This document shows, piece after piece, positions 1 to 59,744 of a stretch of DNA of 59,744 bases (within the stretch, counting starts at the first letter, position 1; the number at the start of each line of letters is the position of its first letter). A program made the position numbers and the translations under genes. This DNA comes from Escherichia coli. Lineage in GTDB: Bacteria; Pseudomonadota; Gammaproteobacteria; Enterobacterales; Enterobacteriaceae. The DNA lies in the NCBI RefSeq assembly GCF_003334255.1, contig NZ_QOWU01000029.1. One strand, given 5' to 3'. The notes beneath the pieces were generated by a model. That model made no database searches, was not told where the DNA came from, and saw nothing but the letters and a program-made list of their open reading frames with translations.

Positions 1-10
1 AATTAAGAGA

Positions 11-29
11 TGGTGCATCCGGGAGGATT
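11..29 (-). other. 19-nt fragment identical to the 3-prime end (T-arm half, acceptor stem, CCA) of the tRNA-Arg at 145-221; not part of a complete tRNA
   Basis: tggtgcatccgggaggatt repeats the first 19 nt of the tRNA-Arg gene as read on the + strand; the flanking sequence does not continue the tRNA. Confidence 0.6.
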
Positions 30-144
30 ACTCGCCTTGCGGCTCGCCCTTCGGGCCGTTGCTAAAGCAACGTTATCCTCCCTGGTGCCTGCGGTTATTA
101 CCGCCACCTCTTCCATACCTTCATCGCTGAAAGTACGTAGAATA

Positions 145-221
145 TGGTGCATCCGGGAGGATTCGAACCTCCGACCGCTCGGTTCGTAGCCGAGTACTCT
201 ATCCAGCTGAGCTACGGATGC
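145..221 (-). tRNA. argV: tRNA-Arg (anticodon ACG), 77 nt
   Basis: Reverse complement reads GCATCCGTAGCTCAGCTGGATAGAGTACTCGGCTACGAACCGAG...GGATGCACCA, a cloverleaf with ACG anticodon and encoded CCA. Confidence 0.93.
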
Positions 222-224
222 AAA

Positions 225-317
225 TGGCGGTGAGGCGGGGATTCGAACCCCGGATGCAGCTTTTGACCGCATACTCCCTTAGCAGGGGAGCGCCTTCAGC
301 CTCTCGGCCACCTCACC
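225..317 (-). tRNA. serV: tRNA-Ser (anticodon GCU), 93 nt with long variable arm
   Basis: Reverse complement reads GGTGAGGTGGCCGAGAGGCTGAAGGCGCTCCCCTGCTAAGGGAG...GGTTCGAATCCCCGCCTCACCGCCA. Confidence 0.93.
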
Positions 318-632
318 ACACGCCTCTTACGAGTGCTTCGAAGAACTTGTTTATCGCTCATCGTCGCTGCGTGGCGCACATATTACTTTCTGAGACTTAT
401 AAGTCAAACAATTTTTCCTACACTTTTATCGTTTGCACACTTCACGTTCAATTAGTCTGTAAAAACGTCAAAAAGAGTGTTTTATCAACAGAAGAATGGA
501 GGTCTGACAGATAGTAGTAATGCAAAAAAATGGAGACTTAAGTTGAATGAACGGGAGTAAAGCGAAAAGACTATAGAGTGAAGGAGAAATTTTGAGGGTG
601 CGTCTCACCGATAAAGATGAGACGCGGAAAGA

Positions 633-58253: not shown

Positions 58254-59291
58254 ATGTTTTCCGCATTGCGCCACCGTACCGCTGCCCTAGCGCTCGGCGT
58301 ATGCTTTATTCTCCCCGTACACGCCTCGTCACCTAAACCTGGCGATTTTGCTAATACCCAGGCACGACATATTGCTACTTTCTTTCCGGGACGCATGACC
58401 GGAACTCCAGCAGAAATGTTATCTGCCGATTATATTCGCCAACAGTTTCAGCAAATGGGTTATCGCAGTGATATTCGGACATTTAATAGTCGGTATATTT
58501 ATACCGCCCGCGATAATCGCAAGAACTGGCATAACGTGACAGGAAGTACGGTGATTGCCGCTCATGAAGGCAAAGCGCCGCAGCAGATCATCATTATGGC
58601 GCATCTGGATACTTACGCCCCGCTGAGCGATGCTGACGCCGATGCCAATCTCGGCGGGCTGACGTTACAAGGAATGGATGATAACGCCGCAGGTTTAGGT
58701 GTCATGCTGGAATTGGCAGAACGCCTGAAAAATACGCCTACCGAGTATGGTATTCGATTTGTGGCGACCAGCGGCGAAGAGGAAGGGAAATTAGGCGCTG
58801 AGAATTTACTCAAGCGGATGAGTGACACCGAAAAGAAAAATACGCTGCTGGTGATTAATCTCGATAACTTAATTGTTGGCGATAAATTGTATTTCAACAG
58901 CGGTGTAAAAACCCCTGAAGCAGTAAGGAAATTAACGCGCGACAGGGCGCTGGCAATTGCGCGCAGTCACGGAATAGCCGCAACGACCAATCCGGGTTTG
59001 AATAAAAATTATCCGAAAGGCACTGGGTGTTGTAATGACGCAGAAATATTCGACAAAGCGGGCATTGCTGTACTTTCGGTGGAAGCGACTAACTGGAATC
59101 TTGGGAATAAGGATGGTTATCAGCAACGCGCAAAAACAGCCGCATTCCCTGCGGGAAATAGCTGGCATGACGTAAGACTGGATAATCAACAGCATATTGA
59201 TAAGGCACTTCCTGGAAGAATAGAACGTCGCTGCCGTGACGTTATGCGGATAATGCTACCGTTGGTGAAGGAGCTGGCGAAGGCGTCTTGA
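58254..59291 (+). CDS. iap: Alkaline phosphatase isozyme conversion aminopeptidase, 345 aa
   Basis: ORF track; signal peptide and M28-type peptidase motifs; immediately upstream of the CRISPR array. Confidence 0.94.
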   Translation: MFSALRHRTAALALGVCFILPVHASSPKPGDFANTQARHIATFFPGRMTGTPAEMLSADYIRQQFQQMGYRSDIRTFNSRYIYTARDNRKNWHNVTGSTVIAAHEGKAPQQIIIMAHLDTYAPLSDADADANLGGLTLQGMDDNAAGLGVMLELAERLKNTPTEYGIRFVATSGEEEGKLGAENLLKRMSDTEKKNTLLVINLDNLIVGDKLYFNSGVKTPEAVRKLTRDRALAIARSHGIAATTNPGLNKNYPKGTGCCNDAEIFDKAGIAVLSVEATNWNLGNKDGYQQRAKTAAFPAGNSWHDVRLDNQQHIDKALPGRIERRCRDVMRIMLPLVKELAKAS

Positions 59292-59313: not shown

Positions 59314-59646
59314 GAGTTCTACCGCAGGGGCGGGGGAACTCCAAGTGATATCCATCATCGCATCCAGTGCGCCCGGTTTATCCCCGCTGACGCGGGGAAC
59401 ACACATGAATGTCGGTTCAGACCGTGTTTTTACCCGGTTTATCCCCGCTGGCGCGGGGAACACGGAATGATATTTCAATAAATAATTATAACAATCGGTT
59501 TATCCCCGCTGGCGCGGGGAACACCCCTCACACCGATTCGCCAAACGGTGGAGAAGCGGTTTATCCCCGCTGGCGCGGGGAACACAGCCGGGCGAAATTT
59601 TGATTCATCGTGATGACCGGTTTATCCCCGCTGGCGCGGGGAACAC
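59314..59646 (-). CRISPR. Type I-E-style CRISPR array end: five 29-bp repeats with four 32-bp spacers, plus a degenerate terminal repeat and a 31-bp spacer-like segment on the iap side
   Basis: Repeats cggtttatccccgctggcgcggggaacac at 59374, 59435, 59496, 59557 and 59618; the first carries G to A (gctgacgcg); a degenerate unit lies at about 59314-59342; + strand shows the reverse complement of the I-E repeat, so transcription is inferred on the minus strand. Confidence 0.93.
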
Positions 59647-59744
59647 CCTGAACGGTGGGGAAAAACCCCATAAGCGCTAACTTAAGGGTTGAACCATCTG
59701 AAGAATGCGACGCCTCGGTGCCTCGTTAAGACGATGCCTCGCGT

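What the first reader, a model, noticed from the sequence alone, without database searches (positions are those of the whole stretch)
59314..59646. CRISPR array begins 23 bp after iap; repeats decay toward iap; cas genes not in window
Five 29-bp direct repeats are spaced by exactly 32 bp. Reading toward iap, the first repeat has one substitution and the unit before it (about 59314-59342, gagttctaccgcaggggcgggggaactcc) is recognisably repeat-derived but heavily degenerate. That is the expected pattern for the leader-distal (oldest) end of an array. Spacers on the + strand: S0 aagtgatatccatcatcgcatccagtgcgcc, S1 acatgaatgtcggttcagaccgtgtttttacc, S2 ggaatgatatttcaataaataattataacaat, S3 ccctcacaccgattcgccaaacggtggagaag, S4 agccgggcgaaattttgattcatcgtgatgac. 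The repeat is the E. coli type I-E consensus in reverse complement. No cas gene lies in this window, so I cannot say whether the array is part of an intact system.
Basis: partly seen in the sequence, partly recalled or inferred. Interest (0 to 1): 0.55.

Follow-up and report, generated by a model that had tools for sequence, protein, structure and literature searches.

The report
IS421-truncated E. coli CRISPR array fragment
This is the old, iap-side end of the well-known E. coli type I-E CRISPR array, cut off from its leader and cas genes by an IS421 insertion sequence sitting in its sixth spacer; it is an ordinary arrangement of a kind already described.

Summary
Five 29-nt repeats lie at an exact 61-nt period (59374-59646). 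A degenerate terminal repeat (59314-59342) starts 22 nt after the iap stop codon. There are no cas genes in the window.

It is not a leader. Bases 59647-59669 are the first 23 nt of a sixth spacer. Bases 59670-59744 are the terminal 75 nt of IS421, a 1337-bp IS4-like element with its transposase on the minus strand. Strain NCTC9041 carries this spacer intact.

Of 5,426 complete E. coli genomes, 23 have this junction. All seven I read carry a cas-E1 operon beyond the IS (eight genes annotated; cas3 marked frameshifted in two), either in normal orientation or inverted between two IS421 copies. A further 251 genomes have IS421 in the opposite orientation at the same site. Most of those are probably cas-less, like E. 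coli C, though I read only four.

Spacer S3 matches IncF plasmids 32/32 with a canonical AAG PAM. S1 matches P7-like phages 32/32.

IS-driven remodelling of this locus was described by Almendros et al. 2014. The finding is of low interest. The fragment is a stranded record with no leader of its own.

The parts
58254..59291 (+). iap gene (alkaline phosphatase isozyme conversion aminopeptidase). It is the conserved flank of the CRISPR-I locus.
   Evidence: 345-aa ORF. Annotated as iap in all relatives.
59314..59342 (-). Degenerate terminal (leader-distal) repeat.
   Evidence: Aligns to the repeat with score 9 against a background of 2.5 +/- 1.5. Identical in 10 relatives and one base different in K-12. 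Described as a conserved 'degenerated repeat + spacer' tandem in PMC3903273.
59343..59373 (-). Spacer S0 (31 nt), the conserved anchor spacer.
   Evidence: Identical in K-12 MG1655 and in all relatives compared. No phage or plasmid match.
59374..59402 (-). Repeat R1, with one substitution at 59390.
   Evidence: The change falls in the hairpin loop and leaves the predicted fold unchanged at -15.2 kcal/mol.
59403..59434 (-). Spacer S1.
   Evidence: 32/32 match to phages P7 and SJ46 and to P1-like records, in gene upf94.2. 28/32 match to P1 lxr.
59435..59463 (-). Repeat R2 (consensus).
59464..59495 (-). Spacer S2 (AT-rich).
   Evidence: No match found, but BLAST's low-complexity filter may have hidden hits. 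Relatives carry an extra spacer (AGTGCTGG...) before it, or carry that spacer instead.
59496..59524 (-). Repeat R3 (consensus).
59525..59556 (-). Spacer S3.
   Evidence: 32/32 match inside a TIR-domain protein gene of IncF conjugative E. coli plasmids, followed by CTT, which corresponds to an AAG PAM.
59557..59585 (-). Repeat R4 (consensus).
59586..59617 (-). Spacer S4.
   Evidence: No phage or plasmid match.
59618..59646 (-). Repeat R5 (consensus), the last repeat in the window.
59647..59669 (-). First 23 nt of a sixth spacer (S5) cut by IS421. The last 12 nt, GGGAAAAACCCC (59658-59669), are one copy of the target-site duplication.
   Evidence: In P13-6 the other side of the IS reads GGGAAAAACCCCCTCTTAACT followed by a repeat. 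Removing the IS and one duplication copy gives a 32-nt spacer. That intact spacer exists in NCTC9041.
59670..59744 (-). Terminal 75 nt of IS421 (IS4-like), at the transposase 3' end. The 22-bp terminal inverted repeat is at 59670-59691.
   Evidence: Window 59647-59744 is identical to P13-6 L004 14108-14205. RefSeq annotates an 'IS4-like element IS421 family transposase' on the minus strand next to it. The element is 1337 bp with 22-bp perfect inverted repeats.

Best explanation
The feature is the leader-distal (iap-proximal) fragment of the E. coli CRISPR-I / CRISPR2.1 type I-E array. It belongs to the lineage whose relatives carry the cas-E1 operon and L1-type leader.

The fragment consists of a degenerate terminal repeat, the conserved anchor spacer S0, five repeats and four full spacers. 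Its sixth spacer is interrupted after 23 nt by a 1337-bp IS421 element inserted with a 12-bp target duplication. The window ends 75 nt into that IS.

In an intact system the array is transcribed on the minus strand from the leader next to cas2. Cas6e cuts each repeat at the base of its hairpin. Cascade-crRNA complexes find protospacers next to an AAG-type PAM, and Cas3 degrades the target. These steps follow from established knowledge of the E. coli I-E system.

This fragment has no leader or promoter of its own. It therefore cannot acquire spacers, which are added at the leader-proximal repeat. Its spacers can be expressed only by transcription that runs through or out of IS421. The IS421 transposase gene points into the fragment in the crRNA sense direction.

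The rest of the array, the leader and the cas operon most probably lie beyond the IS. They would be either in normal orientation or inverted between this IS421 and a second, inverted copy upstream of cas3.

Shown: the anatomy, the IS junction, the spacer matches and the architectures in relatives. Inferred: what lies beyond position 59744 in this genome, and whether the fragment is expressed.
For: Array periodicity and repeat identity. The repeat hairpin is predicted at -15.2 kcal/mol, and the R1 substitution falls in the loop.

The sequence after R5 is identical to the spacer-stump/IS421 junction in P13-6 and G1/2. A 12-bp duplication (GGGAAAAACCCC) flanks the IS, and the 32-nt spacer can be reconstructed. 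The same spacer is uninterrupted in NCTC9041, within a 22-repeat array followed by the leader and cas2.

23 of 5,426 complete genomes share the window's junction at 80% coverage or more. All seven that I read (G1/2, ECCHD184, P13-6, NCTC9087, UMNF18, ETEC4073, and G6/7-type by identity) have all eight cas genes annotated beyond the IS, with cas3 marked frameshifted in NCTC9087 and ETEC4073. Seven of the 23 have the inverted operon.

The two IS421 copies in P13-6 are 100% identical over 1337 bp, which makes them a ready substrate for inversion.

S3 has a 32/32 protospacer with an AAG PAM on IncF plasmids. S1 is 32/32 to P7 and SJ46.

The degenerate repeat plus S0 is shared with K-12, as the literature states (PMC3903273). 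That paper also describes IS insertions in and around this array driving cas-E loss.
Against: The window stops 75 nt into IS421, so nothing beyond the IS is observed for this genome.

The window's exact combination is in none of the 5,426 complete genomes. That combination is spacer set S1, S2, S3, S4 without the AGTGCTGG... spacer, together with IS421 in minus orientation. Its only exact array matches have IS421 in the opposite orientation. The one of them I read (Z1323CEC0012) is cas-less.

Flank SNPs (0-3 in 12.4 kb) do not place the window with any one architecture.

No expression data exist. No strong terminator was found on the minus strand of the IS, but the scan is crude. Rfam gives no CRISPR-DR hit.
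Confidence: 0.87

Rival explanations
1. The fragment is an orphan remnant in a cas-less strain. The leader, the rest of the array and all cas-E genes would have been deleted, as in E. coli C. The array would then be a pure fossil with no partner proteins.
For: 251 of 5,426 complete genomes carry this same array fragment joined to IS421. In E. coli C and Z1323CEC0012 the IS is followed directly by hok and cysH, with no cas genes. Z1323CEC0012 has exactly the window's spacer set.
Against: In those genomes IS421 is in the opposite orientation. Their sequence diverges from the window after the shared 22-bp inverted repeat, at 59692. The window's 59692-59744 matches the other IS end. In all seven genomes read, that end is followed by cas genes. 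A cas-less genome with the window's orientation was not seen, but it cannot be excluded.
Confidence: 0.1
2. It is an intact, leader-attached array, and the 98 nt after the last repeat are the start of the leader. The operon cas2-cas1-...-cas3 would follow directly on the minus strand. This is the layout the first reader implicitly expected.
For: This is the standard layout in K-12 and NCTC9041.
Against: The 40 nt after the last repeat match neither leader: not the cas-E1-type leader (ACTAAGCATACATAACTG...) nor the K-12 leader (TCTAAAAGTATACATTTG...). They are instead identical to a spacer stump plus the IS421 inverted repeat.
Confidence: 0.01
3. The junction with IS421 is an assembly artefact. 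A contig end would have been wrongly extended into a multicopy IS, and the real genome would have an uninterrupted array.
For: Both ends of the window lie in repeated DNA: a tRNA-Arg/Ser cluster at the start and IS421 at the end. This suggests a short-read contig.
Against: The same base-exact junction is present in 23 independently finished genomes. It has the spacer cut at the same base, followed by the IS end. The reciprocal junction with a matching 12-bp duplication is present in those read.
Confidence: 0.02

Closest known systems
E. coli CRISPR-I locus / CRISPR2.1 array (type I-E), cas-E1/L1 variant, as catalogued by Diez-Villasenor 2010 and Almendros 2014 (PMC3903273)
   Same: It lies immediately after iap. 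It has the same 29-nt repeat and 32-nt spacers, and the same conserved degenerate terminal repeat plus anchor spacer. Spacer order is shared with many sequenced strains.
   Different: In the window the array is only a five-repeat fragment with no leader. An IS421 end replaces the continuation.
K-12 MG1655 CRISPR I array (iap-cas2, cas-E2/L2 variant)
   Same: The degenerate repeat differs by one base and S0 is identical. The repeat core is the same.
   Different: K-12 repeats end ...AACTC rather than ...AACAC on this strand. All other spacers differ and the leader differs. In K-12 the array runs uninterrupted into the leader and cas2.
IS-remodelled CRISPR-I arrangements of Almendros et al. 2014 (arrangements D-G and the predicted two-IS intermediates AH1/AH2 with IS186 or 'ISu')
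   Same: An IS sits inside the array and a second copy lies upstream of cas3. Loss of the leader and cas-E1 follows by events between the two copies, leaving a short array stump next to iap.
   Different: The paper left its IS uncharacterised ('ISu'). I did not establish that it is IS421.

The window's orientation gives an inverted IS pair. In relatives this yields inversion of the cas operon (7 genomes) rather than deletion. The direct-orientation pair, which can delete by simple recombination, also exists (HSP425).
E. coli C / WG5-type cas-less CRISPR-I remnant
   Same: The iap-side spacers are the same, and the spacer stump is cut at the same base next to IS421.
   Different: There IS421 is in the opposite orientation and is followed directly by hok-cysH. 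The window diverges from these genomes at 59692.

Membership tests
CRISPR array | Short direct repeats of constant length, regularly interspaced by unique spacers of near-constant length | tested here: met
   Five 29-nt repeats with a 61-nt period. Spacers are 32 nt and unrelated to each other.
CRISPR array | AT-rich leader flanking one end of the array | tested here: not met
   The window has no leader. After the last repeat come a 23-nt spacer stump and IS421. In relatives the leader lies beyond the IS, next to cas2. The window therefore holds a fragment of an array, not a complete one.
E. coli type I-E CRISPR2.1 (CRISPR-I locus) | Repeat sequence of the type 2 / I-E family, identical to the repeats of arrays that adjoin type I-E cas operons | tested here: met
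   The same 29-mer forms the arrays next to annotated cas2e...cas3 in P13-6, NCTC9041, UMNF18 and others.
E. coli type I-E CRISPR2.1 (CRISPR-I locus) | Location between iap and cysH, with the conserved degenerate repeat plus anchor spacer at the iap end | tested here: met
   iap ends at 59291. The degenerate repeat and S0 are shared with K-12 and ten other strains. The feature is described in PMC3903273. The cysH side is outside the window.
E. coli type I-E CRISPR2.1 (CRISPR-I locus) | Repeat transcript forms the stem-loop that Cas6e recognises | tested here: met
   A 7-bp GC stem with a 4-nt loop is predicted at -15.2 kcal/mol, z = -3.2. It is unchanged by the R1 substitution. This is a prediction only; Cas6e binding was not tested.
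E. coli type I-E CRISPR2.1 (CRISPR-I locus) | [quoted passage not shown] | not testable with these tools
   None is in the window. The window ends inside IS421. Seven of seven relatives read that carry the same junction have all eight cas genes annotated (cas3 frameshifted in two).
E. coli type I-E CRISPR2.1 (CRISPR-I locus) | Spacers derived from mobile elements, with an AAG-type PAM next to the protospacer | tested here: met
   S3 is 32/32 on IncF plasmids with AAG. S1 is 32/32 on P7 and SJ46 but with CTG at the PAM position, and 28/32 on P1 with ATG. The four other spacers have no match.
IS421 (IS4 family insertion sequence) | Terminal inverted repeats and a target-site duplication flanking a DDE transposase gene | tested here: inconclusive
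   Only one end (75 nt) is in the window. It is identical to the end of the 1337-bp elements annotated as IS421 in relatives, which have 22-bp perfect inverted repeats and 12-bp duplications. The transposase gene and the second end lie outside the window.

The most novel reading that the evidence does not exclude
The pair of identical, inverted IS421 copies would act as a recurrent flip-flop. It would invert the whole cas-E1 operon, the leader and the younger half of the array. The older fragment seen in the window would stay in place and remain expressed, without a leader, by read-through from the IS421 transposase gene. Old immunity to IncF plasmids and P7-like phages would then persist independently of the leader promoter.
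Probability: 0.07. Interest if true: 0.4.

Novelty: already known. Interest (0 to 1): 0.1.

Why it matters
It matters little beyond correct annotation. The array should be recorded as an IS421-truncated, leader-less fragment of CRISPR2.1, not as a complete array.

From this window alone, the presence of cas genes should not be assumed or excluded. The orientation of the IS end is a useful marker. In finished genomes the window's orientation goes with a retained cas-E1 operon, sometimes inverted. The opposite orientation usually goes with cas loss.

The spacer content is usable for strain typing. It records past contact with IncF plasmids and P7-like phage-plasmids.

Tried and rejected
- **Tandem Repeats Finder** found nothing. 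Units made of a repeat plus an unrelated spacer fall below its similarity threshold, so this does not refute the array.
- **Rfam**, at both E-value and gathering thresholds, gave no CRISPR-DR family. This is uninformative.
- **Single-junction queries.** I planned to separate the normal from the inverted cas architecture this way. I dropped the idea because recombination inside the IS preserves all four IS-end/flank junctions. A 1.9-kb query spanning the whole IS was used instead.
- **Counting genomes with an uninterrupted sixth spacer** from the '80% coverage' figure (183) is not meaningful, because the repeats alone give partial coverage. Only three genomes match at 100%. NCTC9041 does so in one piece, and it is the only one I read.
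- **Flank SNPs.** I tried to infer the window's architecture from SNPs in the 12.4-kb left flank. Nearly all relatives differ by 0-3 SNPs whatever their architecture.
- **First plasmid search.** Using the whole array as query, it was swamped by repeat hits. I repeated it with concatenated spacers. The 5 extra matching bases before S3 in that search come from my concatenation and are a coincidence.
- **Spacers against E. coli chromosomal prophages** were not searched, because hits to the arrays themselves would dominate.
- **Literature search for 'IS421' with 'CRISPR'** gave only MGE inventory tables.

Full report
**Observation**

The region was read directly and scanned with a repeat finder. 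Five copies of a 29-nt unit occur with start-to-start spacing of exactly 61 nt. A mismatch scan of both strands of the whole 59.7-kb window finds exactly five sites within 8 mismatches of CGGTTTATCCCCGCTGGCGCGGGGAACAC. They are at 59374, 59435, 59496, 59557 and 59618. Four are perfect, and the first has a single G->A change at 59390.

Spacers S1-S4 are each 32 nt and S0 is 31 nt. The iap ORF is 58254-59291, so the degenerate unit at 59314-59342 begins 22 nt after the stop codon.

The degenerate unit aligns to the repeat with score 9, against 2.5 +/- 1.5 for random window 29-mers; 0.3% of those reach 9. That is modest on its own. It becomes convincing because the unit sits at the periodic position and is conserved together with S0. 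The pair is identical in ten relatives and differs by one base in K-12 MG1655.

Tandem Repeats Finder returns nothing and Rfam has no hit. Both results are expected for units of a repeat plus an unrelated spacer, and neither weighs against the array. tblastn with the eight Cas proteins of a relative finds nothing in the window; the best hit is E = 0.036 over 55 residues.

The 98 nt after the last repeat are not a leader. They match neither the cas-E1-type leader (ACTAAGCATACATAACTG...) nor the K-12 leader (TCTAAAAGTATACATTTG...). They are base-for-base identical to a junction found in finished genomes:

- 59647-59669 (CCTGAACGGTGGGGAAAAACCCC) is the start of a sixth spacer.
- 59670-59744 is the end of an element that RefSeq annotates as IS421. 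It is IS4-like, and its transposase gene is on the minus strand.

In strain P13-6 the element is 1337 bp with 22-bp perfect terminal inverted repeats. The far side reads GGGAAAAACCCCCTCTTAACT followed by a normal repeat. Removing the IS and one copy of the 12-bp duplication GGGAAAAACCCC reconstitutes a 32-nt spacer. That spacer exists uninterrupted in NCTC9041, inside a 22-repeat array that runs into the leader and cas2. This is therefore a simple IS insertion into a spacer of a once-continuous array.

**What lies beyond the window, judged from relatives**

Among 5,426 complete E. coli genomes, 23 have the window's junction, with the same IS orientation, at 80% coverage or more. I read seven of them.

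- **Normal orientation.** P13-6, NCTC9087, UMNF18 and ETEC4073 have this order: iap, fragment, IS421(-), 13-21 more repeats, leader, cas2-cas1-cas6e-cas5-cas7-casB-casA-cas3 on the minus strand, a second IS421(+), hok, cysH.
- **Inverted segment.** In G1/2 and ECCHD184 the whole segment between the two IS copies is inverted, so cas3...cas2 lie on the plus strand. A 1.9-kb query spanning the IS shows seven genomes in this inverted state.

The two IS copies in P13-6 are identical over all 1337 bp, so homologous recombination between them explains the inversion. Both states occur on two different variants of the iap-side fragment. This suggests that the flip has happened more than once, but I did not test it on a phylogeny.

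A further 251 genomes carry the same fragment, cut at the same base, but joined to IS421 in the opposite orientation. In E. coli C and Z1323CEC0012 that IS is followed directly by hok and cysH, and the leader and all cas genes are gone. At least three genomes (HSP425, ES4 and one other) have a direct-orientation IS pair that still flanks array and cas material. This is the obvious precursor of the deletion.

The window diverges from all opposite-orientation genomes at 59692, just after the shared inverted repeat. It therefore belongs with the 23. Its exact combination (spacers S1, S2, S3, S4 plus IS in minus orientation) is in none of the finished genomes. SNPs in the 12.4-kb flank (0-3) do not tell the architectures apart. 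Whether this strain has a normal or an inverted operon cannot be decided from the window. A new cas-less variant also cannot be excluded.

**Spacers**

- **S3** matches a TIR-domain protein gene on conjugative IncF plasmids of E. coli 32/32. It is followed by CTT, the complement of the canonical AAG PAM. About 145 Klebsiella and Enterobacter plasmids match with two mismatches over the 37-nt alignment.
- **S1** matches phages P7 and SJ46 and P1-like records 32/32, in gene upf94.2. The PAM position reads CTG there, which is not a consensus interference PAM (my own knowledge). Phage P1 itself has ATG but four mismatches, one of them at seed position 4.
- **S0, S2, S4 and the reconstructed S5** have no phage or plasmid match at E <= 10. 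BLAST's low-complexity filter may have masked the AT-rich S2.
- No spacer has a second site in the window within 5 mismatches.

**How it works**

By homology, the array is transcribed on the minus strand, from the leader toward iap. The repeat transcript folds into a 7-bp GC stem with a 4-nt loop at -15.2 kcal/mol. The R1 substitution is in the loop and changes nothing. Cas6e processing, Cascade targeting next to an AAG-type PAM and Cas3 degradation follow from established knowledge of the E. coli I-E system. They were not tested here.

The fragment in the window has no leader. It cannot receive new spacers, and it has no promoter of its own beyond a chance-level sigma-70 match inside S2. The IS421 transposase gene is co-oriented with crRNA transcription. 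No convincing terminator was found on that strand of the IS. Read-through from the leader (normal orientation) or from the transposase gene (either state) could therefore in principle still express S1-S4. That is inference only.

All relatives share the same leader-proximal spacers and differ only by internal losses. This fits the general view that these arrays are not actively acquiring spacers.

**Comparison with what is known**

This is the CRISPR-I/CRISPR2.1 locus of E. coli. Almendros et al. 2014 (PMC3903273) describe:

- the iap-cysH location;
- the conserved degenerate repeat plus spacer at the iap end, regardless of cas-E variant;
- the two cas-E/leader variants;
- IS186 and an uncharacterised 'ISu' inserting in the array and upstream of cas3;
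- loss of the leader and cas-E1 through events between two IS copies, with the two-IS intermediates drawn as hypothetical.

The finished genomes examined here show such two-IS intermediates with IS421, in both inverted and direct orientation. I did not establish that 'ISu' is IS421.

**Verdict**

The useful addition is that the array is an IS421-truncated, leader-less fragment. The kind of feature is already known, and interest is low.

Noticed in passing
window 1-320 and 59670-59744: The window starts inside the tRNA-Ser/tRNA-Arg cluster downstream of csrA, with tRNAs at 148-221 and 228-317 on the minus strand. Its first ~30 nt resemble a tRNA-Arg 3' end. It ends 75 nt into multicopy IS421. 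Both ends lie in repeated DNA, so the window is probably a whole short-read contig that cannot be extended within its assembly.
   Followed up: partly
window 59658-59669; L004 15468-15479, 25076-25087, 26425-26436: The two IS421 insertions at this locus used very similar 12-bp targets: GGGAAAAACCCC in the spacer and GGGTTTTACCCC upstream of cas3. This suggests a GGG-W5-CCCC target preference. The spacer site is occupied by IS421 in both orientations in different genomes, which would fit a hot spot.
   Followed up: partly
L001 14941-26833; L003 14301-28205: In 7 of 5,426 complete genomes the whole cas-E1 operon, the leader and the younger part of the array are inverted between two identical, inverted IS421 copies. 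Normal and inverted states both occur on the same iap-side spacer variants, which hints at recurrent flipping.
   Followed up: partly
L014 12407-19893 (HSP425); L015 (ES4): A direct-orientation IS421 pair flanks array and cas material. This is the kind of two-IS intermediate drawn as hypothetical in Almendros 2014. HSP425 additionally has an internal deletion fusing cas2 to a casA remnant. ES4 has ISVsa5, IS1, IS903B and IS26 in and around the locus.
   Followed up: no
window 59467-59494, minus strand: A sigma-70-like match (TTGTTA, 16 nt, TATCAT; 9 of 12) lies inside the AT-rich spacer S2 and points toward iap. One match was found against 0.6 expected, so it is at chance level.
   Followed up: no
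L004, L008-L010, L012 arrays: All cas-E1 relatives share the same two leader-proximal spacers. They differ only by internal spacer losses, for example the window lacks AGTGCTGGACCATTTCAAATTCACAATAGATT between S1 and S2. There is no sign of recent spacer acquisition.
   Followed up: partly
L007 1259-1963 (plasmid NZ_CP027448.1): The S3 protospacer lies in a gene annotated as a TIR-domain protein. The gene is carried by IncF plasmids of E. coli and, with two mismatches, by about 145 Klebsiella and Enterobacter plasmids.
   Followed up: no
L005 2643-3624; L008 2693-3685: rpoS is annotated as a pseudogene in E. coli C (frameshift) and NCTC9087 (internal stop). I did not check the state of rpoS in the window.
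   Followed up: no
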